Below, piece by piece: positions 6,301-57,934 of a stretch of 64,000 nucleotides of DNA (position 1 is the stretch's first letter; the number at the start of each line of letters is the position of its first letter). This DNA comes from Tubiluchus corallicola. Its lineage: Eukaryota > Animalia > Priapulida. The translations under genes and the position numbers were made by a program. The DNA lies in contig JAQGDQ010000183.1 of assembly GCA_030141605.1 (NCBI GenBank), positions 362,241 through 426,240 of the forward strand. Reading direction: 5' to 3'. The notes beneath the pieces are model-generated. The model was not told where the DNA came from, searched no databases, and saw only the letters and a program-made list of their open reading frames with translations.

Positions 6301-9300
6301 TTGCAAACTCTCAGACGGTGCTGTGAGTTGAATTTGTGAGAGTTACTGTTGGCAAGTTATTGCAAACTCTCAGACGGTTGCTGTGAGTTGAATTTGTGAG
6401 AGTTACTGTTGGCAAGTTATTGCAAACTCTCAGACGGTTGCTGTGAGTTGAATTTGTGAGAGTTACTGTTGGCAAGTTATTGCAAACTCTCAGACGGTTG
6501 CTGTGAGTTGAATTTGTGAGAGTTACTGTTGGCAAGTTATTGCAAACTCTCAGACGGTTGCTGTGAGTTGAATTTGTGAGAGTTACTGTTGGCAAATTAT
6601 TGCAAACTCTCAGACGGTTGCCGTGAGTTGAATTTGTGAGAGTTACTGTCAAGTGTGAACGCCTCGGCAAGTTAACACCGATACTCGGAGTAAATGGAGA
6701 AGTGTGTGTCGGCAGAAGCGCTTACTGTCTGAGAGTAACTCGCAACAATTTTTGCTCTATAAAGCGAATGAATGTGACAAAGATCGCTATTATTCTGTCG
6801 TTAAATTATTGCCGTCGTAGCAGCCGTAACTTCTTCTTCTCTTTTTCTCAATCTTTGTCTATTATTTTATCTTAACTATCTATCTATCTTTTATATCATC
6901 TCATATATGACCTTCATTCATTACATCATTCCATTCTGTAGCACTAAATGTTTTCTTTATCACACGATTCACTTCAAATTTCCAGTTTATTTCCATTACT
7001 TTTTTTCTTTCACTGTGAGGGACAATCTAACAAGCCCTGCTTTTTGATTGCCCGCAACACATTTACATTTGTATATATAGTAAACCTAAACTATGGTATA
7101 TCGAAACTAGTTACGTGCTCAAAGTAAACTGTATACGAATTTACTAAGCAACATACATTAGCGATAATTCTCTTGTTTATCTTTCAATCCTGCAGTGTTT
7201 TGAGAGTCAAGTTAGTATATTTGTAATGATGCTGTACACAACGTTGTTTAGACATCAGTATTAAAGGAAGTAGCGATATCACTATCTTTGTTTACCATAG
7301 GTTGAACTATGTCTAAAGACAGTTTAAATCATTTTTTCCAAAATTTGCTTCCTATAATGTATCTTACTGTTTCTTATTCATTGAATTATTGATAACTTTT
7401 TCTTTCTTTTAATGTATTAATTGTGTATTTGTGTTGATGTGAAATAAATAAACTTATTCACGGCTTTGTGAAACCGGTATGATAAAATTTCCAAGGTCGC
7501 CTCATGCAGCGCTTGGCTTTCACTCTGCAGTGTTTATTGTATAAGGGCTGTCTAAACCTCAATGAAAGAAAAGCACCTAGCTACATATTGGTAAGAAAGA
7601 TAAGTGGTTTCAAGCAAGTAGAAAGAAATTAATTACCAGAAACCATAAAGAAACTCACACAATGTTTAATTTATATGATTTAAGCAGCATTGATTTTTGC
7701 CTTTGTAACGTCTCTCAATTCTTTTACATTAATTTCTGTGGAAATCTTGGCTTCGTTTAACGATGTTTTGCCTAATGTCACATTTTGCTGGAACGCATTA
7801 GCGTCGTTAATCGAGGAGACTTGCCGTATATGAAAGAAACTGTTCACCTCTTAACCCGCTTGTTTTTCTGTTTCGTTTCATCACATTTTTTCAAATGTTT
7901 CTGCTAATTTTAGAGAAAATCTCGTGATGGTCGACTTGTATTTCAACAGCCTGGACTACGTCCAGTTGGAAGAACGAAGAGCTACAACGGGTGTCCAGAC
8001 TCTCAGTGAGTGTTTTTACTTTTTTCCCCAAACAGTATTGTGACTAAATTACAAGCAGTATTGTGACTAAATTACAAGCAGTATTGTGACTAAATTACAA
8101 GCAGTATTGTGACTAAATTACAAGCAGTATTGTGACTAAATTACAAGCAGTATTGTGACTAAATTACAAACAGTATTGTGACTAAATTACAAGCAGTATT
8201 GTGACTAAATTACAAACAGTATTGTGACTAAATTACACGCAGTATTGTGACTAAATTACAAACAGTATTGTGACTAAATTACACGCAGTATTGTGACTAA
8301 ATTACAAACAATATTGTGACTAAATTACAAGCAATATTGTGACTAAATTACAAGCAGTATTGTGACTAAATTACACGCAGTATTGTGACTAAATTACAAG
8401 CAGTATTGTGACTAAATTACAAGCAATATTGTGACTAAATTACAAGCAGTATTGTGACTAAATTACAAGCAATATTGTGACTAAATTACAAGCAGTATTG
8501 TGACTAAATTACAAGCAGTATTGTGACTAAATTACAAGCAATATTGTGACTAAATTACAAGCAGTATTGTGACTAAATTACAAGCAATATTGTGACTAAA
8601 TTACAAGCAGTATTGTGACTAAATTACAAGCAGTATTGTGACTAAATTACAAGCAGTATTGTGACTAAATTACAAGCAGTATTGTGACTAAATTACAAGC
8701 AGTATTGTGACTAAATTACAAGCAGTATTGTGACTAAATTACAAGCAGTATTGTGACTAAATTACAAGCAGTATTGTGACTAAATTACAAGCAGTATTGT
8801 GACTAAATTACAAGCAGTATTGTGACTAAATTACAAAGCACTGTACATATTCTGTTTACTGACGCATCAAAAGCGTTCGATAGAATAAACTATCTCAAAC
8901 TGTTCCTAAACCTTGTCAATACTAACCTACCAAATGTAGTAATTAGACTTTTGCTTTTTTATTACACGGAACAACGTATGTTGGTTAGATGGGGTAAATT
9001 TAACTCTGATAGTTTTGCAGTAGGTAACGGAATTTGTCAAGGTGGAAAAATGTCTCCACTGTTATTTAACTTCTATTTTAAAAATCTTACTGCTGAACTT
9101 ACTAACTCTGGTGTGGGTTGTCATATTGCAGAAGCCTGCATTAATCACTTGATGTATGCTGATGACATATGTCTTTTAGCAACAACGTCGACGCTTTGCA
9201 GAGACTGCTAGATATTTTTAATAAATTTGCTAAAGAATATCATATCCTTGTAAATGTGAATAAGACTAAACTTGTCACGTTTCGCTCCGCCCACATGCAG

Positions 9301-11273
9301 CAGTTTACTTCTGTTGTTTTGCAGTGTAAAAGTTTTGTACCTAGTAAAAAGGAAAAATATCTGAGTCATATTTTATCAGATGACAATAGAGATGATTTAG
9401 ATATATTACGACAATGTTCAATTTACTATGGTAGAGCAAATAAATTACACATGAAATTTACTCACTGTTCAGTTAACGTGAAGAGACAATTGTTTAATGC
9501 TTACTGCACTACTTTTTATTGTATGTCCACTTGGAGACATTTTTATTCTTACAATCTTAGCAAACTCAAGGTTGCATATAATGTATCAACACGGAAGCTG
9601 TTTAACTTTGCATATGATACGAGCGCTAGATATATTTCTACTAGACTTAATCCTATTTATTTTGATGTGATTCACAGAAAATGTGCATACAGTTTACACG
9701 TCAGGCTGAATAAGAGTGAAAATTTTATATGCAAGAACATTTTAAACAGTGATGTAAACTTTACTTCTGTAATTAGACGTCATTAGCGTAATTTGTTATA
9801 TCGTTAATTGTTATTTGTGTTATTGTTGTGTGTCATGATTTATTGTATTATTTGTATTAATTTGTAATTGTGTATGTGAACTTTGTAAAGTTTGAAATAA
9901 AATATTAAATCAAAATCTAAGAGGTGATACAGATATGATGCAGAAAAGAAAAGTGTTTTAACTTGACTTTAATACAGAGTTAAAGAAATTTGTTGTTCTG
10001 AAATAGACATTAGTTGTGAATTTACAAAACAAGCTACAAGCTGTACTCTTGTTTTTGCTTATATGAATTTGCCCCCCCCCCCGATTTCTCTCGTTTAAAC
10101 CCAGGCGGTTTGTCAAATTTTCTGTCTGTTTGGCAGTATGGCAGTTGAAAATGCTGAGATGCTGTTTGCTAGGTGGTCACCTATCCATTTACTGACAACT
10201 GTTACTTGAGTTTAGTTTGCTTAGAGCAAACAGTAAGCACCCAGCTACTAAAAACCACTACATTCACAGGTTATATATAAAGATATGAAAGCCACCATGA
10301 CAGAAAAGAAATGCACGTCCAAGTCTGGAAAAAATTTGCATACGAATTTGTGAAATATGTGTCATTAACATTTTGATGAAGCCAGAGCGTACTAAACTAA
10401 ACACACTGAACTGAAACCACACACAAGTATAGTACACTAGGGTTTAGCATTCTCTACAACAAAACAAATTTGAATCGAATCGAATTTTCGCGCTTTCGAA
10501 TCCGAATCGAATTCGAATTTGGTTCCAAAGATTTTCGAATAGATTTGTAATAGAAAGCTGTCTCGGAAAGATTGTGCATATTGCTTGATTTTGTTCCTCA
10601 GCAAAAACACTAATAGTAGTTAAAATAGTATGTCATAAGTCATAAGTCATTTATTTCACCTTACACATTTACAATAGTTTCATGTACAATATCTAGTGAA
10701 AGGGCCTACAATGAAAGTAATGCAAATAAGTTTTTATTCTTTCTGCACAGGAAAAGCCTCAAACACTGTTCACCTATATACGAAGGTAAATGTGTTGCGG
10801 GCAATCAAAAAGCAGGGCTTGTTAGATTGTCCCACACAGTGAAAGAAAAAAAGTAATGGACATAATCTGAAAATTTAAAGTGAATCGTGATAAAAAAAAC
10901 ATTAGTGCTTAAAATGGAATGATGTAATGAATGAAGCTCAAATATGAGAGAACAGAAACTCATATATGTAAAACAGAAACTACAAATAAATTCTGCTGAT
11001 TGCAGGATGTTTTATTTATTTGAATCGAATTTGAAAGTTAAAGTACACCTTTAATGTAATTAGGTTTTTCTTGCAGGTGACATTGGTGGTCAGCTGGGTT
11101 TGTTCATCGGAGCTAGCATCATCACATTGTTTGAAGCGCTAGCTTTTCTACTGGCTATGCTCTACTACAACTTTGTCTGGCCGTTCAGACAGCAGGCTAA
11201 ACAGAGGGCGCTGGCTTCGGATGCCAGAACTGCTGAGACCGAACTGAACTCACCATCCCCAATAAGTCTCTGA
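917..11273 (+). CDS. DEG/ENaC (ASIC-like) sodium channel, 3' part; join(917..1096,1894..2033,2972..3119,5065..5133,5548..5707,7914..8005,11077..11273); 5' exons outside the window
   Basis: Seven GT-AG exons with matching phases give GVCWT, LNLQLYEY, GAKVNLH..P...G..LLPG, WGKC, YSFEAC..CGC, NLVMVDLYFNSLDY and TM2 DIGGQLGLFIGASIITLFE (GAS selectivity filter). Confidence 0.92.
1378..1600. repeat. 74-bp tandem repeat x3
   Basis: TACTAATGTCTA... recurs at about 1378, 1452 and 1526. Confidence 0.85.
1894..2033 (+). CDS. DEG/ENaC exon (DFYIPGASMDLGAKVNLHEP...VTEK)
   Basis: ttgtag acceptor, AAG|gtac donor, beta-ball motif. Confidence 0.85.
2455..2860 (-). mobile_element. Interspersed repeat, probable LINE 3' end; other copies at about 6900-7456 (+) and 10785-10950 (-)
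   Basis: Shared GTTGCGGGCAATCAAAAAGCAGGGCTTGTTAGATTGTCC and about 400 bp of homology; the plus copy ends in GAAATAAATAAA. Confidence 0.7.
2972..3119 (+). CDS. DEG/ENaC thumb exon (LEFLHVDNWGKC...YSFEAC...CGCTMVMYP)
   Basis: tttcag acceptor, G|gttagt donor, Cys-rich thumb. Confidence 0.88.
3226..3390. repeat. (AAT)n followed by (ATT)n microsatellite
   Basis: Read directly. Confidence 0.95.
3598..3873 (-). mobile_element. tRNA-derived SINE, copy 1
   Basis: Minus strand: A box TAGTCTAGTGG, B box GAGTTCGAACC, core GGTCATACCAAAGACTTTAAAAATGGTACC, AATAAA plus (ATT)n tail; near-identical copy at 52591-52869. Confidence 0.85.
5065..5133 (+). CDS. DEG/ENaC thumb exon (GNLRTCLPNDTIQCV...)
   Basis: T-run ccag acceptor, gtaagt donor, two expected Cys. 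Confidence 0.85.
5548..5707 (+). CDS. DEG/ENaC exon (...YSCTSACNVLYYTSSVSYAMLP...)
   Basis: tttcag acceptor, gtaagt donor, C-x3-C...Y...S motif. Confidence 0.88.
5872..6650. repeat. Compound array: 52-bp unit x about 3, then 60-bp unit x about 10
   Basis: GAGTTACTGTTGGCAAGTTATTGCAAACTCTCAGACGGTTG... repeats. Confidence 0.92.
6900..7456 (+). mobile_element. Probable LINE 3' end, inverted relative to the 2455-2860 copy
   Basis: Reverse complement of 2455-2860, ends GAAATAAATAAA. Confidence 0.7.
7914..8005 (+). CDS. DEG/ENaC exon (ENLVMVDLYFNSLDYVQLEE...)
   Basis: ttttag acceptor, gtgagt donor, conserved palm motif. Confidence 0.9.
8033..8836. repeat. 23-bp minisatellite CAGTATTGTGACTAAATTACAAG x about 35
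   Basis: Read directly. Confidence 0.97.
8837..9915 (+). mobile_element. 5'-truncated, frameshifted LINE (RT domain plus C-terminus, RTE-X-like)
   Basis: DASKAFDRI, GICQGGKMSPLLFN, LMYADD, VNVNKTK; frameshift near 9190; AATAAA-containing tail. Confidence 0.9.
11077..11273 (+). CDS. DEG/ENaC last coding exon (TM2 and C-tail ending PISL*)
   Basis: ttgcag acceptor; DIGGQLGLFIGASIITLFE; TGA at 11271-11273; AATAAA at 11846-11851. Confidence 0.93.
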
Positions 11274-17734: not shown

Positions 17735-41884
<24,150 letters not shown>

Positions 41885-43467
41885 TATAGGAGACTAGACA
41901 GTTTTAGGCAGAGCTATGAACTCATCAAACCATCTTTAAATTCCTGTAAGAGACAAATACGTAAAATTCCCACATACCGATCATTTTCATCTGACTCGAA
42001 GTAACATTGTGTAAAAATATCAAACACAATTAAAAAAACAAAGAAAATTTTTTAAATAAACAAACGACAATTGAATGAAAACTTCTTACTTTAGCGGTTT
42101 TTCCGCTTACAGCTGTTGGCGGGGTAAAAACGCCCATGCTAATCGTGGGGTGAGTTCAACACAGCCTAGTAATTTTATAATTTAACATATACATAACCCC
42201 AACCTAGTAATTAACCCTCAAATGTCCAGCTGGGGTCAAAAACAGAAAAACAAATTCTCACAACCCGCTTCATCATGCTTTATTTTTGTCTTAGTAAATT
42301 AATCGTTGGAATCGGTTTAATAAGAAAAGGGTCAAATAATTTAACTAATGAAAGCTCTCGAGGCATTCAAAGCAAACCATCCACCAGGTAAATTGCACAC
42401 ATTTCAGGGGTTTATTGTTAGAATAGCCAGGCGAGTGATAGTTATTACGCATGCAAGTGTACACACAGGGTGAATGACACACATAAAGGCTAGTGCACAC
42501 TGGTAAACTCGTTCCAGTATTTCAAATATTACAGGCAGTATAAAATCTGCGAACGGTGTGCCGTAACTACGTAACGTGAAACTATAACAAACAAGCGATG
42601 TAATGAATACAGTAAAAAGCTGGCAATAATGCACATATGCTACTGTTACATGAATTATTTGCCTTACTGATTTGTATTGCATTGTATAACTCAAAGAGAA
42701 AAATAAATTATTTATCTGTTACAGGTACATAAACTGTTTAGTGTTTAAAGTACATCGCAAAAAACTTTCCACAGAAAATTATGTTACTTAACATTACACT
42801 TAGCCGTTTGAAAGACCCACGTAACCAGAAAAGAAAATTCTTAGTAACGTAGAATGCTAGCGCTAACTGGTAAAACATTACTGACTCATCTTCCCAGTAT
42901 GCACCACTGGCTCACCAAAAAACACATTATTAATTTTATTGAAAATATACGGTAATATTTTTGCTTAGTTGTTGAATATGATGCTATGAATGCTCTGATT
43001 ATTTTCTCAAATTTTACACAGATCTATACAAATTTGTTTCAAACGACCTACCATTAAAATGGCTGCGTCTAGCGGTGATCGGGAAGTTTAAATTTACAAG
43101 TTTTATACAGGTTACTGCTACTGCAAGCTCTGTGTGCAATGAGACAGCGTGTAAGTGATATAAAATTTCAAGACGCATTTCGTAAGTTTTATTTATGAAG
43201 AGTGTTTTCTTGTGCTTTAAATTTTTAGTTGCTTCACTTTTCTGTGATGCACGGAGCAAGAACTATGAAGTATGAACTATGAATTTTATTTTCACACATC
43301 GAATACAATATTGTACACATAAATAAACAATAAATAAAATGATTTGAGTAGTGCGAGGTGAGTGTACGACCATACGGTCATTAACACACTCACCTTACTT
43401 AAATGAAAATGAAAAAATTATTAAAGTTATGCGTGCTTTTGTAGATGACTTAATGAAATTGATGTAA

Positions 43468-43900
43468 TAAAGTAAATGATGTAATAATAGCAAGGAAACA
43501 TAAGGAAAACATAATATGTAATTACGATTTTGATATAAATATTGAAATAATTTTGAAATAAAGTAAATGATGTAATAATAGCAAGGAAACATAAGGAAAA
43601 CATAATATGTAATTACGATTTTGATATAAATATTGAAATAATTTTGAAATAAAGTAAATGATGTAATAATAGCAAGGAAACATAAGGAAAACATAATATG
43701 TAATTACGATTTTGATATAAATATTGAAATAATTTTGAAATAAAGTAAATGATGTAATAATAGCAAGGAAACATAAGGAAAACATAATATGTAATTACGA
43801 TTTTGATATAAATATTGAAATAATTTTGAAACAAAGTAAATGATGTAATAATAGCAAGGAAACATAAGGAAAACATAATATGTAATTACGATTTTGATAT
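43468..43900. repeat. 91-bp tandem array x about 5, adjoining a hairpin-bearing retroelement 3' end (43262-43480, minus)
   Basis: Period seen in the repeated ORF starts at 43694, 43785 and 43876. Confidence 0.9.
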
Positions 43901-46961: not shown

Positions 46962-49879
46962 GCATAACCATTTTAAAGGTTGTTCAGAAAATTACCAACC
47001 CTCTTGTACATGTATACTCCCTCATACTCCTAACTAACTGGTACATGAACTATAATTTCACCAATAATTTTCCTAACTCACACATTTATGCCAGTTATCA
47101 CTTATAATTCACTTATCATTACATCACGATTTTGGGAGCGATAAATTTTGAGATATGTTTGCAAAGTTTTTACACTGTTGTGATTTAATTTTGATCAGAT
47201 TACCCTGCAATTAGAAGTATTTACAATGAACCGAACCACTGGCGGCTCGTGTATACGTACTGTGGTACTGCAGCACCCCCTGTTTTCACTCATTATTATC
47301 GATAATATTCTATATAACAAGTCTTTTTTCTTTAGTTATTTTTAGACTTGTGTGGAACATGAGGGAAGTACAATTTGCTTCACAGCCCAAGCAACATGGT
47401 GTTTGGCTGTTATGCGCACACGGCCAAGCGCATGTGTCTGAGATAACACGCTGTATGCTATCGTCTGCTGCTAGGTAGAAGAGTACTGTGTCTATCACAG
47501 TAACAATTGCCATGTGCTCACAGTGTACCATCATATTCTTGGATGTAAAACTGTGTAATAGTCAATTCTGAAATATCTTATTAATTACTTTGTTAAAATC
47601 AGAAAGCCCCAATAACGATGTGATGTGTACCCAAATTATAGTAAATTTTTCAAATGGACATTATTAATTAAGCTATACATACGCTGGCAGTCCCAGCACT
47701 TGTATTGTAAATAAATTTGTGTTATTACAAAGTGCAAACAAACTTAAACTCAATGTAATTACAATTTTCAAAATGATGCCAAAAACCGTTATTATGGCGT
47801 TAAGTACTTTTTCAAAATGATGCCAAAAATAGTTAAGTACTCACAAAACCGCTTTGCTATTTGCATAGAAACATAAACTGCTAACGGCTGCAGGTTTTCT
47901 CTGTTAATTTTCATTTATAAACAAACATTCCTATTTTAAATATAGTAAAAAGTACTATAACATAATTATACTGGTCTACCGATTTTTTTCAACAACGTTT
48001 ATCGGCAAGATCAGAAATCTTTTTCAATGTTATGCGTTCAAATGCAAGGTCCCCGGCCAGTCCACCACAGAATTTATGAAATTCCTCACTTCACTTTGGC
48101 CGGCTGGTGAAACGCTGAAAACCTAAGAACCAGTCACGCACTATATTTTTTAATTATGCGTAAAAATGCAAGTAAGTAAGTATCTTTATTTATCACCATT
48201 TTTACAAGAAAAACACAGAGCATGAAACGATAATATGATACAAAGTGACAAGATTATTAAATGAATAAATTATCTGAGTTAATGATATTCAAGTGATTGG
48301 TGAAAGGCTGGCGAAAAACTAAAAGTTACCAAGGTCAACCACCCTGGAAGCACAAAGCTAATCCAAATGGCACTCTACTGTTCTGTGCTAACATAATATT
48401 TATGCACTTAAGATTATTCTTGTTAAAGTAGCTGCTAGTAAAGGTATTATAGCCAGTAAACAAAGCACTACGTGGAACAAACGGCTCGCTTCACATGGTG
48501 CATAAAATGCAGCACATAGTGAGGCATGTTACCTAAACATACTGTAAAATAAAAAAATATTCATGTATTTTAGCCAGTCCCATACTTGCATACCTGCAAA
48601 TCAACGTTAAGTACTTATTCATGGCCTGCCTTTACAAAGACCGATTTGCTCTTTGCATAGAAGCAGGAACTGCTAATGGTTGCAGGTTTTCTTAGTTAAT
48701 TATCATTTAGAAACAAACATTCCTATTTTACTATCTCATTATTATCACTAATGTCACTATCTCTGACAAGCCACTTGGCACTTGACCAGAAGGGCAACTT
48801 TTCATGCCATTGGAAGCCTGCTTGCCAACACGTGCACTTCCTCATATAATGCTATATACTTGAAACCTAAAGTTGCTAGTATCATGTTGCAGTCCAATTC
48901 AAATGGTACCCTGCTCAAACAGTTTATTGTCCAAATTATATATGTTTCTAAATAACCCATGTGTCCTATCTACCTCTTGTCCAGATGAGTTATATACTTA
49001 AATCACTTATTGTCCAAATGGGTTATGTGTGTATGCGCTGAACATGCCCAAAACACCAAACGTCCAAATGTCTTACGTGTCCAAAATATCTAGCATGTCA
49101 ATGGCCCATGTGATCAAATAGTTCACTTGTCCAAATAACTTACGTAGCAAACTGCTTTGAGTCGAAATGACCTGTGTCCGAATGCATCTGCATAAAAAGA
49201 TCAGTTATTGTCATTTAAAACTCCCAAAGTTGATAACTATTATTTTCAAATTTAGACACTTTCGATAATAATGACCGTGAAATGCTTTACTCAATTACAT
49301 TGTATTTAAGTGATCAGATGACTTCCAAACTTATTATTGTTGTTTTGTTATTATTATTATTAATTTATTAGCATTATTAATTTTTGTTATTATTATTATT
49401 GTTTTTTGTTTTTATTAATGACGAAAATTGGCTGCGGATAACGTGCTTCGTTCATGATGCTCTTTACTATTGCTTAATCATACATTGCCCTCACACGTTT
49501 TCTTCCATAAAAATAGTTTCATTAATGGCTAATTTGTATTCTATTACACGTGTGAAATAAATACGTCTTATATTTTATATTGCGAAATTCGGACAAACCC
49601 GAACAAACACTCTGATATATGTCAACAATATGGATGTCAACATCATAATTTCTTTCTTTGAAAAGATTTCTTCTATTGTACTGAAGAATTCTGTGCTATT
49701 CGAGTTATTTCACGTGCTACAATAGTTATGTATGACAATTTCGGTTAATTGTTTAAACACACAGTTAAAAGTCCATGATCTTGTAATTAATTTAATATTG
49801 CGAAGTGCAGGTATTTAAGCAAATTACGGCTATAGGGCGCACAGTACGCCATTAGCCGAAGTAGAATTTTGCGGAAAAC

Positions 49880-50600
49880 CAGTGTTGTACATGGGCAGCC
49901 CAAGTAAGGCACTGGCGATTTCTCTCACTCTCTTAACTTTACCTTGAAAATTCTGTGAATTCCTCATTTTATGACAAATTGTGCTTGTTGGCTGAGTTGC
50001 CGTCATGAAAACTTGCTTGACCAGGTGTTTGATTCAGGCCAGCATGCTGTACGTTGGCATTGTAGGGCACATAGCTCGCTAGCCCGTTTACTTGGGAGAA
50101 AACAATTATTTGATAAAGAAGTAGTGAAATGGATCACCTGTCTGTGAAGCGAGGCAAAATAAAAAATGATATACCTTAAAACCAACTGTTGGAATCGCCT
50201 AAAAAGCAGCCTTATTGCAAAAAGATTAATCAGATTTAATATTGCTTGTTCGATTAGGTCAGAATGAATAAGATTCTTTTATCTTACCAGATGTATAATA
50301 AATAATTTGGAGCGACATTTTCAATTATTGTTATTATTGGCTTGAATAAACAAGGACAACGGATGCTGCCACTACGGTTAACAACTCATTTCGTGAACTG
50401 TCTCTCCTGTACTACTTGGGTAGTCCGTGTACGACACGTCCTACTTGGGCTAGCCCATGTACGGCAAATGTCCTATTTCGGCTAGTGTCATTCTCTGCTC
50501 TTGACAAAGGCAGCATATCACATAATTAAGATTTTTATTTGGGAACCTCCTCGTTGTTGTTCAACATGCCGGCTGCATTAAGGCTCCACAAGGTCTAATT
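49880..50600. promoter_or_regulatory. Probable bidirectional promoter and 5' UTR exons of Scm (-) and LSm6/EXOSC7 (+)
   Basis: Unique sequence between divergent genes; minus-strand donors AAG|gtaaag (49943) and CTG|gtaag (50288); possible plus-strand donor AAG|gt (50592). Inference only. Confidence 0.35.
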
Positions 50601-50602
50601 TC

Positions 50603-51580
50603 TAATCATTTTTTCATTTCAGTAAGGTGAGCGTGTTAATGATCGTACGGTCGTATGGTCGTACACTCACCTTGCACTAGTCAAATTATTACATCATTTA
50701 CTTCATCCTTATTTACATTAAGTTATCTACAGAAGCATGCATAACTATAATCATTTTTTCATTTAAGTAAGGCGAGTGTGTTAATGACCGTATGGTCGTA
50801 CACTCACCTCACACTACTCAAATTATTACATCATTTACTTCATCCTTATTTACATTAAGTTATCTACAGAAGCATGCATAACTATAATCATTTTTTCATT
50901 TAAGTAAGGTGAGTGTGTTGATGACCGTATGGTCATACACTCACCTCGCACTACTCAAATTATTACATCATTTACTTCATCCTTATTTACATTAAGTTAT
51001 CTACAGAAGCATGCATAACTATAATCATTTTTTCATTTAAGTAAGGTGAGTGTGTTAATGACCGTATGGTCGTACACTCACCTCACACTACTCAAATTAT
51101 TACATCATTTACTTCATCCTTATTTACATTAAGTTATCTACAGAAGCATGCATAACTATAATCATTTTTTCATTTAAGTAAGGCGAGTGTGTTAATGACC
51201 GTATGGTCATACACTCACCTCGCACTACTCAAATTATTACATCATTTACTTCATCCTTATTTACATTAAGTTATCTACAGAAGCATGCATAATTATAATC
51301 ACTTTTTCATTTAAGTAAGGTGAGTGTGTTAATGACCGTATGGTCGTACACTCACCTCGCACTACTCAAATCATTACATCATTTACTTCATCCTTATTTA
51401 CATTAAGTTACTACAGAAGCATGCATAACTATAATCATTTTTTCATTTAAATAAGCTGAGTGTGTTAATGACCGTATGGCCGTACACTCACCTCGCACTA
51501 CTCAAATTATTTTATTTAAAGTTTATTAATGTGTATGATATTGTATTTTGATGTGTGAAATAAAATTCATAGTTTATAGT
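50603..51580 (+). repeat. 137-bp tandem array x7 built from a hairpin-bearing retroelement 3' end
   Basis: AGGTGAGTGTGTTAATGACCGTATGGTCGTACACTCACCT every 137 bp; last copy runs into AATAAAATTC(ATAGTT)n. Confidence 0.9.
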
Positions 51581-52590
51581 AAAAGTACATTGTGCATAGG
51601 AACTGCGTACTGCCTACAAGAGGCGGCATACTAATCAATCGCGTAACGTATATGCGACTCACTGTATATTGGCAATAGTGTCGTCTACAACTAATATTAG
51701 GAAAAAATAAACTATAATAATTATAAATTATCTGGTAAATAATAACTAATTAATTACATTATTATTACAATCTCATTCCACATTTGTAGTCATTGAGGTG
51801 TCAACATTTATCAGAGTATTCCACCCACTTCAATCTGCAGCTAACAGCGTAAGTTCTTCTATTCTTAAACATAGGTTTGGTTGAAATTGTTGAACATCGT
51901 TATTTACCTTAGCTTTCCAAGTTGTTTTAGGTTTGCCAGGTGGTTTTTTTGCAAGATTTAAACGCTTCCTTCAAGGCGATTCTTACTGGTACTTTACTTG
52001 GTAATCTTAGAAGGTGTCCTAGCTTTCTTAATCTTTGGACCTTGACTTTTGAACTTCAAGGATTTTCTGTTATTCTAGTGTATCTATTTATTATTAAATA
52101 TCTTTTTTTTATTTATTATTTTTTCTTTTATTATTTTTAATTATTTAAAAAATAATAATTTAATTATTTAATTTTTTTGAATTTATTTCTCTTTTATTAG
52201 TGTGAATGACAAGCAGAGCTTTTGAATTCTTCCTCAGTTTAGCTCTTCCACTTCTGTGTCTTTCAAATGTACAACTCCCTGTTGTGCGAGAGAAACGAAT
52301 CGCTTTCTGACTCTCCTCTTTATGCTATTTGGAAACTGTCAGCTTGTGATGTCTTGCACCGTTCTCTATAAGACTGGGTACATACCCACAGTAATGCTTA
52401 TGACATGTTGGCAATAGTAATTTAACATGTTCTTCCGACTCTTTTTGCGGCTGCATCCATAGTAATGCGGCGATGCTATTTTTTGGTACGCATTCAAAAT
52501 GAAGCCCATTTTCTAGTGCCTTACATCCGTGGATACCACTGTATGTATAAAGCACAAATGAAAGCCGTAGAGCTGTACAATGCTAACCTT

Positions 52591-52869
52591 ATAATAATAA
52601 TAATAATAATAATTATCTTTATTTAAAGTCGGCTTTTGGGTCAACAATTAACATTAGCTCAAAGAACTATTATCGCCGACTGTAAATAACAGCCTACAAC
52701 TACATAACGGAGACTATTATTACCCCATTTTTATCCTAAATACCACGCGTCAGGCAGGGCAACAGCAGGTACCATTTTTAAAGTCTTTGGTATGACCCGG
52801 CTGCTGGTTCGAACTCACGACCTCCCAGACGGAAAGCAGACGCATTGCCACTAGACTAAACCGTCTGGT
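52591..52869 (-). mobile_element. tRNA-derived SINE, copy 2
   Basis: Near-identical to 3598-3873. Confidence 0.85.
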
Positions 52870-53019
52870 TAAAGTGGGTGGTATAAAGGGGTGTGTCTGT
52901 ATTCGAGATTCACTGATGCTGTACTACAATATGCCAGCAGCATGATATAGATTGGCACTTGCCCACACTTGAAAATATAAAAATTTATGGTATCATATTT
53001 TCGTGCCAAATTTACGTGG

Positions 53020-53445
53020 CAGAGTTCTCACGGTCAGGGAAAATCCTTGAAAATACAGGCTATCCCGGAAAGTCATGCACAAGTCAGGGGAAAAGATAGT
53101 TTGGTAAAAAGTCAGGAAAAATGATGAAAATGGGGCGAAAAGTCGGGGTAATTGGAAAGGTTTGCAAAAATAACCACCGTGAACTGATATTTTTCCAAAC
53201 ACATTTTTTAGCGATTCGTGTTCAAATAAAATTTTTGCTTTGACAGGTTCCCAGTTGTGATTTCTGTTCCAAAAATAATGTTTGGCCGACGCATTATATA
53301 TCAGTATATCTATGAATATCCATACACAAAAATGTTTGAATATGTATACTGGTAATGCAATTTCTGTTTATCTTGGTCATGGAAAATCAATATTTGGTCA
53401 GGGAAAAGTCATGGAAATTTATTTTAAGATTCTGTGGGAACCCTG
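53020..53445. mobile_element. Probable hAT-like MITE just upstream of the LSm6 acceptor
   Basis: CAGAGTTCTCAC.../...GTGGGAACCCTG ends and GTCAGGGAAA subterminal repeats; TSD not clear. Confidence 0.5.
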
Positions 53446-53493
53446 ATATGGTTAAACGATTCCGCTGAAAAATCATTTTTTTCAGACTGAGAC

Positions 53494-53739
53494 ATGTCTA
53501 TGAGCAGGAAGCAAACACCCAGCGAGTTTTTGAAGCAGATCATTGGTCGACCCGTTGTGGTCAAACTGAATTCCGGAGTGGATTATCGAGGGGTGTTGGC
53601 CTGCTTGGATGGGTACATGAACATTGCATTAGAACAGACGGAAGAGTACGTCAATGGTCAACTTAAGAACAAGTACGGCGATGCTTTCATTCGTGGCAAC
53701 AACGTGTTGTACATTAGCACTCAGAAACGCCGCATCTAG
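53494..53739 (+). CDS. LSM6: U6 snRNA-associated Sm-like protein LSm6, intronless CDS
   Basis: MSMSRKQTPSEFLKQIIGRPVVVKLNSGVDYRGVLACLDGYMNIALEQTEEYVNGQLKNKYGDAFIRGNNVLYISTQKRRI; acceptor tttttttcag ending 53485. Confidence 0.97.
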   Translation: MSMSRKQTPSEFLKQIIGRPVVVKLNSGVDYRGVLACLDGYMNIALEQTEEYVNGQLKNKYGDAFIRGNNVLYISTQKRRI

Positions 53740-54830
53740 TTCACATTGCATTCTTGCTGCAGATCAGTTTAATAGATCAGTAGCAACAACGTGTTGTACA
53801 TTAGCACTCAGAAACGCCGCATCTAGTGCGTATTGCGTTCTTGCTGAAGATCAGTTTAATAGATCAGTAGCAACAACGTGTTGTACATTAGCACTCAGAA
53901 ACGCCGCATCTAGTGCGTATTGCGTTCTTGCTGAAGATCAGTTTAATAGATCAGTAGCAACAACGTGTTGTACATCAGCACTCAGAAACGCCGCATCTAG
54001 TTCACATTGCATTCTTGCTGCAGATCAGTTTAATAGATCAGTAGCAACAACGTGTTGTACATCAGCACTCAGAAACGCCGCATCTAGTGCACATTGCATT
54101 CTTGCTGCAGATCAGTTTAATAGATCAGTAGCAACAACGTGTTGTACATCAGCACTCAGAAACGCCGCATCTAGTTCACATTGCATTCTTGCTGCAGATC
54201 AGTTTAATAGATCAGTAGCAACAACGTGTTGTACATCAGCACTCAGAAACGCCGCATCTAGTGCACATTGCATTCTTGCTGCAGACTAGTTTAATAGATC
54301 AGTGGCAACAACGTGTTGTTCATTAGCACTCAGAAACGCCGCATCTAGTTCACGTTGCGTTCTTGCTGAAGATCAGTTTAATAGTTCAGTGGCAACAACG
54401 TGTTGTACATTAGCACTCAGAAACGCCGCATCTAGTGCGTATTGCATTCTTGCTGAAGATCAGTTTAATAGATCAGTAGCAACAACGTGTTGTACATCAG
54501 CACTCAGAAACGCCGCATCTAGTGCACATTGCATTCTTGCTGCAGACTAGTTTAATAGATCAGTGGCAACAACGTGTTGTACATTAGCACTCAGAAACGC
54601 CGCATCTAGTGCGTATTGCGTTCTTGCTGAAGATCAGTTTAATAGATCAGTAGCAACAACGTGTTGTACATCAGCACTCAGAAACGCCGCATCTAGTGCA
54701 CATTGCATTCTTGCTGCAGACTAGTTTAATAGTTCAGTAGCAACAACGTGTTGTACATTAGCACTCAGAAACGCCGCATCTAGTGCACATTGCATTCTTG
54801 CTGAAGACCAGTTTAATAGTTCAGTGGCAA
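53693..54830 (+). repeat. 87-bp tandem array x13 derived from the LSm6 C-terminal codons, stop and 3' UTR start
   Basis: Unit begins inside the LSm6 CDS (GGCAACAACGTGTTGTAC...CGCATCTAG). Confidence 0.97.
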
Positions 54831-54918
54831 AATCAAGTGATTTTTTTTTGTGCATAAAAAGTGCCTTGCTCAACATTTTTTTTAATATTACATTCCTGTA
54901 TCTTATTTCATGTTCAGT

Positions 54919-55809
54919 ATGTCGGGCACTTTATTACTAAGCGAAGCAGAAAAAACATTTATTGTGCACGGTGTACAGGAGAATCTGCGGATTGATGGTA
55001 GACAATGCAGTGATTACAGACATATTGACATAGAGACAGACGTGATTTCTAGCGCTAACGGTTCTGCTAGATTGCGACTTGGTAAAACTGACATCCTGGT
55101 CGGCGTTAAAGCAGACTTGGTCGACACGCAGCCGGAAAGCCCGAACAAAGGGAGGCTGGAGTTTTTTGTCGACTTTTCTGCGAATGCCGCGCCAGAATTT
55201 GAAGGTAGAGGCGGAAATGAGCTTGCGTCTGATATTAGTAGCACACTGGCAAGGTCCTACAGCTCTCCTAGTTGTAAAAAAGTCCTGGAAACGCTGTGCG
55301 TAATCCCTAGGGAAAAGTCCTGGGTTCTTTACGTCGACATCCTGATCCTAGAGTGCGGAGGCAGTTTGTACGATGCCGCATCTGTTGCCGTGAAGGCTGC
55401 GCTGCACTCCGTAAAGATTCCCGCGATAAACGTCGTAAGCAAGGACGGCGGAAGACCGGAATTGGAGCTCTCGGATGATCCGCACGACTGCAGGAGAATC
55501 GAAACTTCCCACTTTCCGTTGATTGTCAGTTTGAGCAAGATTGGAGACAGTCACGTCGTCGATGCCTGTATGGAGGAGGAGACGTGTGCGTTTGCATCTC
55601 TGATGGTAGCCGTGACGACGTCGGGTACGATCACCACGATAAAAAAGTCCCATCATGGCAGCCTTCATCCGGAAAGCGTCTTCGAGATGATGGAAACGGG
55701 AAAGCAGGTCGGCGTGAAGCTGAACAAGGCACTGCTGAAGATTTTGCAAAAAGAGGAAAAACAACGAAAAGAGCCAGGCGTGGAAGGAACAGCAAGAGGA
55801 TTCTTATAG
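54919..55809 (+). CDS. EXOSC7: Exosome complex component RRP42 (RNase PH-like), intronless CDS
   Basis: LSEAEKTFIVHGVQENLRIDGR, NGSARLRLGKTDILVGVK, SANAAPEFEGRGG, WVLYVDILILECGG. ATG 54919 matches the family N-terminus (in-frame ATG also at 54910); ATTAAA at 56010. Confidence 0.96.
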   Translation: MSGTLLLSEAEKTFIVHGVQENLRIDGRQCSDYRHIDIETDVISSANGSARLRLGKTDILVGVKADLVDTQPESPNKGRLEFFVDFSANAAPEFEGRGGNELASDISSTLARSYSSPSCKKVLETLCVIPREKSWVLYVDILILECGGSLYDAASVAVKAALHSVKIPAINVVSKDGGRPELELSDDPHDCRRIETSHFPLIVSLSKIGDSHVVDACMEEETCAFASLMVAVTTSGTITTIKKSHHGSLHPESVFEMMETGKQVGVKLNKALLKILQKEEKQRKEPGVEGTARGFL

Positions 55810-56866
55810 ATTTGCCGCATCTTTGAAAGACTTTAAAATTGTGAAATGTATCAAGTGTCGACTACTTAGTAAATATGTTATCAAATGTTGCATTAACACT
55901 GATATCTTTTTCCCGTGAGTGATGTAAATATTGTGAAAAGTAGAGATGGTTCAGTTTTATCAGCTGCTTTTCGTAAAATAGTAATTTTTATCCATTTTCA
56001 TTTAAAAACATTAAATTTCTACTTTATTTTAAAATACCCATTGCCCACACAGTAATGCACTCACATCTCGGTTTGCCGGACAAAAGCGGGGAGACGTTGG
56101 TCCGAATTTGACGATTGTCCATATTTTCTGATACTCGGCTGTCTGTTAGACTCGTGGTAATGTGCAATTAATCGCTTAGTTGTCTGAAAAACATCTAGTA
56201 CAGGCCATTCCTGACGTACAAACAACACACGCATAGTTACTCCCGGCTTTGTTGTGCAGATGTAAGTAATGGCCTGCCAGCTAACGGTCAGCTCGCGAAA
56301 CAACGGATTGTGTCCGTAGTATGCAGGACTTTTAACGGTCCAGATTTATTCAGACTTTTCCGATATCCGTAAAAGGGAAGTCTGGCAAGCCGAGATGTGA
56401 ACGTACATCGATTGCATTTAGATCTTATATAACTAACGATCATCCATGAGTATGCATAGCTCCATCTATTGGGAAGAATGTGAAATTAGGGTTTTGCCCT
56501 AAATAATGTTGTGTGCACACGTGATTATGTACATCAAAACGAGAAATCAAGAAATGAAGTTCTTTTGTAAATTCCACCATATTTTGTTATTTTGAGAACA
56601 AAATGTGCTAAAATAGTATCATAAAGTAGCCAAGACTTGAAATTTTATTTGTTCACAGCAGAGCGGCAGTATTAAGGGTGCATCCACAAATTTCAATTTC
56701 GACTTAATTGCAGTAATGTGCTTCAGTTGAAGTTCCAGTATCATTTGACATTTTCTTTCAGATTAAGTCAATAGCGCTGTAGTAATTCAGTGTAGAACTC
56801 ATTTAAGGTGTGACGATTAACGTCAGATTTCCGGATTTACTTGGGAAATTACTTGATTGTTTAGAG

Positions 56867-57268
56867 CAGGGGTGTGCAAATTATCTGACTAGCCGGGCCA
56901 CATTAAACTTTCCTGCAATTCCTGTGGGCCACATGCAGTTTGGTCGAGGAGCCAAGTACAGTAGGACCTAATAACGATTTTTTTTGCATCCGATTTGCGT
57001 ACATCATTACTACTGCACTACTACACTCAAGAAACTATTTTAGAAGTTATTGAAATTTATATTAAAAATCATATTTCGTCATGTCCGACAGTGACATTAA
57101 GTGACAACGGTCTTGTAAGGGTTAATGCCATCCGATCTAGAGGAAAAAACTACCCGCACTATGGTGCAGATTTCAGCTGGATCGCATGGGCCGCACTTTC
57201 ATTATGTTGACAAACCTCTTCGCGGGCCACACAAGATCTCTCGGCGGGCCGCAGTTTGCACACCCCTG
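56867..57268 (+). mobile_element. hAT MITE family A (short form), TSD GTTTAGAG
   Basis: TIRs plus TSD. Confidence 0.92.
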
Positions 57269-57386
57269 GTTTAGAGTGACTTCATATAGTTCTGTCATCA
57301 AACAAGTTTTTTGATTGCTGAATGTGACGAAGCTGTAAACATTGTAGTTCATTTTGTTTTGGTGATTAGTTTTGTTAGTTTAATTT

Positions 57387-57934
57387 GTTAGACTCACATG
57401 AGTAGTTTGGCCACAGCTTCACCATTGTAGACCTTGTTAGACTTACATGTGTAGTTTGGCAACAGCTTCACTGTTAGACTTACATGTGCAGTTTGGTGAC
57501 AGCTTCACTGTTAGACTTACATGTGCAGTTTGGCGACAGCTTCACTGTTAGACTTACATGTGCAGTTTGGTGACAGCTTCACTGTTAGACTTACATGTGC
57601 AGTTTGGTGACAGCTTCACTGTTAGACTTACATGTGCAGTTTGGTGACAGCTTCACTGTTAGACTTACATGTGCAGTTTGGTGACAGCTTCACTGTTAGA
57701 CTTACATGTGCAGTTTGGTGACAGCTTCACTGTTAGACTTACATGTGCAGTTTGGCGACAGCTTCACTGTTAGACTTACATGTGCAGTTTGGCGACAGCT
57801 TCACTGTTAGACTTACATGTGCAGTTTGGCGACAGCTTCACTGTTAGACTTACATGTGCAGTTTGGTGACAGCTTCACTGTTAGACTTACATGTGCAGTT
57901 TGGTGACAGCTTCACCATTGTAGACCTTGTTAGA
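57387..57934. repeat. 37-bp tandem array x about 14
   Basis: GTTAGACTTACATGTGCAGTTTGGTGACAGCTTCACT repeats. Confidence 0.95.

What the first reader, a model, noticed from the sequence alone, without database searches (positions are those of the whole stretch)
53470..56015. LSm6-EXOSC7: candidate operon or shared-leader unit coupling two RNA-decay machines
Seen: two co-oriented intact ORFs, each with a polypyrimidine-CAG acceptor just before its ATG (tttttttcag|actgagacATG at 53485; tcttatttcatgttcag|tATG at 54917). Between them is only the 87-bp array plus about 90 nt. Collapsing the array to one copy leaves about 135 nt from stop to ATG, with no obvious room for a promoter and first exon. 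That spacer has a weak CATAAA (54853) and T-runs, but I saw no AATAAA or ATTAAA; ATTAAA follows EXOSC7 (56010). Known: LSm6 belongs to LSm1-7 (5'-3' decay) and LSm2-8 (U6), and Rrp42 is an exosome core subunit. A short U-rich spacer with a poly(A) site followed by an acceptor is the architecture of SL-trans-spliced operons in nematodes. Inference: either a polycistronic pre-mRNA resolved by trans-splicing, or one leader exon cis-spliced alternatively to two unrelated ORFs.
Basis: partly seen in the sequence, partly recalled or inferred. Interest (0 to 1): 0.85.

Follow-up and report, generated by a model that had tools for sequence, protein, structure and literature searches.

The report
LSm6 and EXOSC7 share one leader
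In an animal genome, likely a priapulid worm's, two unrelated RNA-processing genes lie in tandem; a relative's likely-RNA contig joins the first gene to a leader that matches an exon 3.7 kb upstream, and the second gene likely borrows the same promoter and leader, a known kind of gene pair that makes a nematode-style trans-spliced operon unlikely.

Summary
In detail: intact, intronless LSm6 (53494-53739) and EXOSC7 (54919-55809), an acceptor before each ATG, a 13-copy 87-bp array, and a 135-nt collapsed spacer. The host is likely a priapulid. A likely-RNA run of a relative carries LSm6 joined at 53486 to letters that match window 49792-49810, followed by a GT donor (expected by chance 2.6e-4). 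So the LSm6 leader is most simply cis-spliced from 3.7 kb upstream, not a foreign spliced leader and not from the 50.5-kb array. EXOSC7's route is open: its acceptor is strong and unchanged in the relative, but the only contig over it is unspliced, and the spacer has no ATG before 54910. Best reading: one promoter, and poly(A) choice plus alternative acceptors give either mRNA (0.5). Rivals: dicistronic mRNA (0.22), own promoter (0.15), SL operon (0.06). Acceptors just before the EXOSC7 ATG also occur in other animals, so they do not diagnose trans-splicing. This is a new pair of a known kind (cholinergic locus, CPNE1/RBM12). The scan noted similar layouts with other genes in three other genomes.

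The parts
49792..49810 (+). 3' end of the likely non-coding leader exon (its 5' start is unknown)
   Evidence: Loose end of the X2 LSm6 contig matches here with 3 mismatches, only hit at that level in the window; GT follows at 49811; match followed by AGGT expected 2.6e-4 times in 53.5 kb
49547..49716 (.). Two CACGTG E-boxes (49547, 49711): weak hint of the promoter region
   Evidence: 18 such sites in 64 kb, none in the array or spacer; E-boxes in ribosome-biogenesis promoters per PMC2570694 (passages); picked after the fact
49811..53485 (+). GT-AG intron from the leader to LSm6, 3,675 nt
   Evidence: branch-like CTGAT at 53443
49866..49871 (+). Sm-site-like ATTTTG 55 nt after the donor (caveat in favour of the SL reading)
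   Evidence: 4-5% of donor-like sites in the window have one
53494..53739 (+). LSm6 coding sequence, no intron (81 aa; 79 aa from the second ATG at 53500)
53696..54830 (+). 13 x 87-bp array: tandem copies of the last 44 nt of LSm6 with its stop plus 43 nt of 3' UTR; adds about 1,044 nt between the genes
   Evidence: units present in run X1
54784..54918 (+). Spacer: T9 run, CATAAA (54853), T8 run (54876-54883) overlapping a branch-like TTAAT (54882), pyrimidine tract, in-frame ATG (54910), acceptor AG (54916-54917)
   Evidence: X2 contig aligns unspliced from 54877
54919..55809 (+). EXOSC7/Rrp42 coding sequence, no intron, 296 aa
   Evidence: one X1 contig covers 55146-56094
56010..56015 (+). 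ATTAAA, predicted EXOSC7 poly(A) signal
   Evidence: use not tested

Best explanation
A leader matching 49792-49810 is joined to LSm6 in a relative's likely-RNA contig, which points to a cis-spliced leader exon and a likely promoter just upstream of it, and EXOSC7 is likely made from the same promoter by splicing that leader to the second acceptor at 54917. Inferred mechanism: most transcripts splice 49810 to 53486 and are cut at a weak poly(A) site in the spacer (CATAAA 54853, predicted cut near 54872, T8 run downstream), giving LSm6 mRNA. Transcripts that escape the cut run on to ATTAAA 56010, and the leader donor can then use the 54917 acceptor, removing LSm6 inside a 5,107-nt intron. The T8 run overlaps the predicted branch point, so cleavage and splicing would compete for the same few bases. 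Read-through RNA that keeps both ORFs would be an intermediate or by-product. Shown: the ORFs, the signals as sequence, the leader-LSm6 join in one contig, and an unspliced contig across the EXOSC7 acceptor. Inferred: the promoter, the poly(A) site, the leader-EXOSC7 join and the competition.
For: Leader-LSm6 join and its unique cis match with a GT donor. EXOSC7 acceptor scores like the Scm acceptors and has a branch-like motif 32 nt upstream. The X2 contig lists no difference in 54907-54923, while 20 of its 23 listed coding differences are at third codon positions (table 3 hides 40 rows, so this is read from what is shown). That contig has 79 letters upstream of 54918, which would leave about 56 nt after a single-copy LSm6 stop for a separate promoter. 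Acceptors within 30 nt of the EXOSC7 ATG in 5 of 10 likely genomic loci and 0 of 12 transcript-like loci suggest an old 5' UTR intron into which LSm6 could have moved. Precedent: 24 human promoter-sharing pairs (PMC2568002) and unc-17/cha-1 (PMC3875643).
Against: No contig shows the leader joined to 54918; the only contig over the EXOSC7 start (X2 record 9) is unspliced. The spacer has no ATG before 54910 (200 of 5,000 shuffles of the collapsed spacer, 45 of 5,000 with one array unit), which this model does not need. Conservation of 54907-54917 could come from the in-frame ATG at 54910 instead. X2 is one run, only guessed to be RNA, about 10% diverged in EXOSC7, and only 17 loose letters were shown. 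X1 shows no joined form at 53486. No transcription start was mapped.
Confidence: 0.5

Rival explanations
1. Dicistronic mRNA. The leader splices only to LSm6; transcripts that escape the spacer poly(A) site carry both ORFs, and EXOSC7 would be translated by reinitiation at 54910 or 54919. With no intron after the LSm6 stop, the mRNA would avoid junction-dependent nonsense-mediated decay.
For: X2 contig runs unspliced through the acceptor. No ATG in 1,170 nt between the genes. First ATG (54910) is in frame with EXOSC7. Both coding regions lack introns, while the neighbouring Scm gene has at least 12 coding exons. Precedent: stoned and Adh-Adhr (PMC2776167, passages).
Against: Strong acceptor with branch-like motif right at the start codon. 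No contig bridges both ORFs (neither call covered the array). A 1,044-nt array was tolerated between the ORFs. Contigs can drop a short spliced branch, and read-through RNA is expected under the best explanation too.
Confidence: 0.22
2. Independent genes. EXOSC7 has its own promoter inside the LSm6 3' region, array or first intron; its 5' UTR is unspliced or uses a local donor.
For: Unspliced X2 contig and ATG-free upstream sequence fit a plain 5' UTR. The two genes are unlinked in other animals checked.
Against: The promoter would have to overlap the LSm6 end or the array; no CACGTG or DRE-like site there. I saw no strong donor between 53486 and 54900 in the consensus scan.
Confidence: 0.15
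3. SL-trans-spliced operon. A spliced leader from an SL RNA is added at one or both acceptors; 49792-49900 would itself be an SL RNA-like gene.
For: Short collapsed spacer with poly(A)-like signal, U-rich run and acceptor. 49811-49871 meets SLIDR's default sequence rule, GT donor with AT4-6G 20-60 nt downstream (PMC7986045, passages), with a hairpin between.
Against: The leader's source is in cis, on the same strand, 3.7 kb upstream. It differs at 3 of 19 letters between relatives, whereas SL exons are usually near-invariant (recalled). 4-5% of donor-like sites carry such a motif; fold z-score -1.56; no SL or snRNA family in Rfam for 48500-57500. No SL on the EXOSC7 contig. Listings showed no report of SL trans-splicing in priapulids.
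Confidence: 0.06

Closest known systems
Cholinergic gene locus (C. elegans unc-17/cha-1; PMC3875643 passages; PMC2776167 Fig. 11b legend)
   Same: Shared non-coding first exon; first gene lies inside the first intron of the second; choice by splicing and poly(A).
   Different: There both joins are known and the products act in one pathway. Here the second join is not shown, both coding regions are single exons only 135 nt apart when collapsed, and the products belong to different RNA machines.
Human promoter-sharing pairs such as CPNE1/RBM12, ITGA1/PELO, FASTKD5/UBOX5 (PMC2568002 abstract and sections 5, 12)
   Same: Same strand, unrelated coding sequences, shared 5' exon, predicted decision by poly(A) use of the shorter gene versus read-through.
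   Different: LSm6/EXOSC7 is not among the 24 pairs of that table; the poly(A) elements of gene 1 are predicted to overlap the branch point of gene 2.
Drosophila dicistronic mRNAs (stoned, Adh-Adhr; PMC2776167 passages)
   Same: Tandem ORFs, no trans-splicing needed, read-through RNA seen.
   Different: A strong acceptor precedes the second ORF here; translation from a two-ORF mRNA is untested.
SL-resolved operons of nematodes and tunicates (PMC7986045, PMC3342872 passages)
   Same: Short collapsed spacer with poly(A)-like signal, U-rich run and acceptor.
   Different: The leader seen maps in cis; no leader on the downstream gene; real spacer 1,179 nt.

Membership tests
Shared-first-exon gene pair (cholinergic-locus type) | Non-coding upstream exon cis-spliced to gene 1 | tested here: met
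   One X2 contig; match at 49792-49810 plus GT. X2 is only guessed to be RNA.
Shared-first-exon gene pair (cholinergic-locus type) | The same exon spliced to gene 2 | tested here: inconclusive
   Only contig over 54917 is unspliced; contigs show presence, not absence.
Shared-first-exon gene pair (cholinergic-locus type) | Unrelated coding sequences, same strand, gene 2 with its own acceptor | tested here: met
Shared-first-exon gene pair (cholinergic-locus type) | Gene 1 ends at its own poly(A) site ahead of gene 2 | not testable with these tools
   CATAAA 54853 and T8 run seen as sequence only; no raw reads offered.
SL-trans-spliced operon | Leader comes from a separate locus, not from upstream in cis | tested here: not met
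   LSm6 leader has a unique cis match with donor 3.7 kb upstream.
SL-trans-spliced operon | Downstream gene receives a spliced leader at its acceptor | tested here: inconclusive
   No leader on X2 record 9; a short branch may have been dropped.
SL-trans-spliced operon | SL RNA gene: donor, Sm site 20-60 nt downstream, stem loops | tested here: inconclusive
   Rule met at 49811/49866, as by 4-5% of donor-like sites; z -1.56; no fitting Rfam family.
SL-trans-spliced operon | Same leader on many unlinked mRNAs | not testable with these tools
   No genome held and no way to search the run for the leader.
Dicistronic mRNA (stoned, Adh-Adhr type) | One mature mRNA holds both ORFs | tested here: inconclusive
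   Contig spans spacer and EXOSC7 start only; no call covered the array.
Dicistronic mRNA (stoned, Adh-Adhr type) | Second ORF translated from that mRNA | not testable with these tools
   ATG-free spacer is compatible; needs ribosome data.

The most novel reading that the evidence does not exclude
Priapulids trans-splice: 49792-49900 is an SL-RNA-like unit (donor, hairpin, Sm-like site) sitting at the head of its own operon, cis-spliced to LSm6 and also donated in trans to the EXOSC7 acceptor after cleavage in the spacer. It would show a shared leader exon in the act of becoming a spliced leader.
Probability: 0.05. Interest if true: 0.8.

Novelty: new member of a known kind. Interest (0 to 1): 0.32.

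Why it matters
If the best reading holds, two conserved housekeeping genes of RNA turnover depend on one promoter and on a switch where one gene's poly(A) elements overlap the other's branch point. That would be a compact test case for cleavage-versus-splicing competition, and an annotation trap in a slowly evolving ecdysozoan lineage. The kind of arrangement is known, and the pair was not found in other animals checked, so it looks lineage-restricted and not an ancient coupling. It would matter much more if SL trans-splicing were shown in priapulids, which the evidence here makes unlikely.

Tried and rejected
No whole genome is held, so paralogues and other leader copies could not be sought. 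No RNA holder was listed; X2 came in by species label. Depth figures cannot rank genes or parts (tool text): X2 LSm6 136.8 against EXOSC7 23.4-46.1; X1 LSm6 2,309-2,945 against EXOSC7 about 16. My word-depth arithmetic for X2 record 9 gave upstream depth 30, 14 or 4 for coding depth 23, 46 or 60, so it does not decide which form dominates. X1 is of unknown kind and has a hole at 54858-54945, which proves nothing. Leader near 50.5 kb rejected: the loose end does not match there at up to 4 mismatches and the 137-bp unit is a repeat. Conservation of the pair: tblastn found LSm6 in 0 of 80 metagenome loci, but about 55 look archaeal and only L016, L018, L019, L026 and L023 among the eukaryote-like ones hold more than about 1.3 kb upstream without being transcript-like, plus L027. 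No LSM plus RNase PH fusion model among the 120 listed of 182 longer LSm6 hits or the 120 listed of 430 EXOSC7 hits. In 6 of 6 species that I paired by eye (Patella, Mya, Dreissena, Coilia, Cryptotermes, Heterocephalus) the two proteins lie on contigs of different length; the last two may reflect different assemblies. Priapulus caudatus linkage stayed open: its EXOSC7 is XP_014666299.1 on a 543,210-nt contig, but no Priapulus LSm6 or Scm appeared, and the accession search found nothing. Paper searches for this pair gave none: LSm6 + EXOSC7 + bicistronic 0 papers; LSm6 occurred in none of the 6 papers. The one Rfam match (RFPL3-AS1_2, 51997-52063, below its cut-off) is treated as chance. The 211-aa ORF 53654-54289 is a by-product of the array. 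No supplements were read.

Full report
Observation. LSm6 (53494-53739) and EXOSC7 (54919-55809) are intact single-exon coding regions on the + strand. Each has an AG acceptor just before its ATG. On my crude score these sites rank within the range of Scm acceptors in the window; 17 of 2,511 ATGs have such a site within 10 nt. The array is 13 copies of the LSm6 tail with its stop and 43 nt of 3' UTR. Two details were missed: there is no ATG in 53740-54909, and the first one, 54910, is in frame with EXOSC7 and lies upstream of the acceptor.

Organism. The best EXOSC7 hit is Priapulus caudatus at 66%, the next at 58-61%, so the host is likely a priapulid; this is inferred from one protein. The neighbouring Scm gene on the minus strand has at least 12 coding exons, so the lack of introns in both coding regions is not a genome-wide trait. 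That other animals have introns in these genes is shown for EXOSC7 by split hits in several loci and recalled for LSm6.

What is joined to LSm6. Run X2 (guessed RNA, 13 million letters of contigs, about 10% different in EXOSC7) has one contig over LSm6, aligned 53484-53638 with 17 loose letters in front. Those letters match window 49792-49808 with 3 mismatches and are followed there by AG and a GT donor. It is the only match at that level on either strand. A match followed by AGGT is expected 2.6e-4 times in the 53.5 kb upstream. The simplest reading is a cis-spliced leader exon ending at 49810 and a 3,675-nt intron. Run X1 (kind unknown, about 2% different) shows no joined form here; its 5 partial contigs are one upstream flank, three adapter ends (adapter identity recalled) and one array end.

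What is at the EXOSC7 start. The only contig over it, X2 record 9, aligns without gaps from 54877 to 55003 and has 38 more letters in front that the tool did not print. It therefore contains the acceptor unspliced. This is the main result against leader-to-EXOSC7 splicing. It is not decisive: contigs show presence, not absence, and read-through RNA must exist before that splice can happen. The listed differences leave 54907-54923 unchanged while third codon positions differ often; the table was cut, so this is moderate evidence, and the ATG at 54910 could explain it as well. The ATG-free spacer (200 of 5,000 and 45 of 5,000 shuffles) favours a scanned 5' UTR, that is a dicistronic mRNA or a local promoter.

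Control on the acceptor argument. Of 10 likely genomic EXOSC7 loci from metagenome contigs with the start codon held, 5 have an acceptor scoring 13.5 or more within 30 nt of the ATG (L012, L020, L021, L022, L023; the last two are near copies). None of 12 transcript-like loci has. L014, L015, L017 and L024 were left out because the start was not placed, and the archaeal-like loci were not scored. LSm6 was found in none of the 80 loci. An acceptor before the EXOSC7 ATG is thus common and no sign of an operon, though some of those unidentified animals may trans-splice.

Mechanism. Most likely (0.5) one promoter upstream of 49792 serves both genes. The leader splices to 53486 and the RNA is cut in the spacer, or the RNA reads on and the leader splices to 54918. 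The T8 run after CATAAA overlaps the branch-like TTAAT at 54882, so the two reactions would compete. A dicistronic mRNA (0.22) shares the promoter claim, so a single cis-spliced unit has about 0.7 in all. An own promoter gets 0.15. An SL operon gets 0.06: the donor region does meet SLIDR's default Sm rule, but so do 4-5% of donor-like sites, the fold is unremarkable and Rfam has nothing fitting. How the layout arose is inference: LSm6 may have moved as an intronless copy into the old 5' UTR intron of EXOSC7.

Known systems. The layout matches the cholinergic locus (PMC3875643 and PMC2776167, passages) and the human promoter-sharing pairs (PMC2568002, abstract and sections 5 and 12). It works like them on the best reading; membership is not established because the second join is not shown. 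PMC7986045, PMC3342872 and PMC2570694 were read as passages only. My searches found no paper on an LSm6-EXOSC7 unit and no listing on SL trans-splicing in priapulids; subscription papers are mostly outside that library. The pair is unlinked in 6 of 6 species paired by eye and untested in Priapulus caudatus. Three earlier notes of this scan describe like layouts with other genes; they are leads, not support.

Verdict. A real, tightly packed gene pair with a cis-spliced leader shown for the first gene and a likely shared promoter. New member of a known kind; interest 0.32.

Noticed in passing
window 17741-41947, minus strand: Polycomb Scm gene (zf-FCS, MBT, SAM-region exons). Its likely first coding exon (41839-41943) has an acceptor before the ATG, so its first exon lies further right, possibly head-to-head with the LSm6 leader near 49.5-49.8 kb.
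   Followed up: partly
L010 116-1153 and 1166 onward: An aminotransferase class-V ORF ends 12 nt before an intronless EXOSC7 ATG on one transcript-like contig: an operon-like or dicistronic layout with another partner in another animal.
   Followed up: partly
window 53538-53722: In run X1 the LSm6 contigs have depth 2,309-2,945 against about 16 for EXOSC7, with some array contigs at 206-253. Could be RNA, target capture or many LSm6 copies; unexplained.
   Followed up: no
window 53020-53448: Element with likely terminal inverted ends (read by eye) stops about 37 nt before the LSm6 acceptor; X1's flank differs upstream of 53469.
   Followed up: no
window 50603-51511 and 43338-43488: 137-bp array whose unit holds acceptor-like and donor-like motifs 4 nt apart; related sequence at 43.3-43.5 kb on the other strand feeds a 91-bp array. 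The site at 50622 is the best-scoring acceptor inside the intron.
   Followed up: partly
window 8807-9786 (+) and 24700-25071 (-): Open frames that look like decayed reverse-transcriptase (LINE-type) fragments, by eye; label recalled.
   Followed up: no
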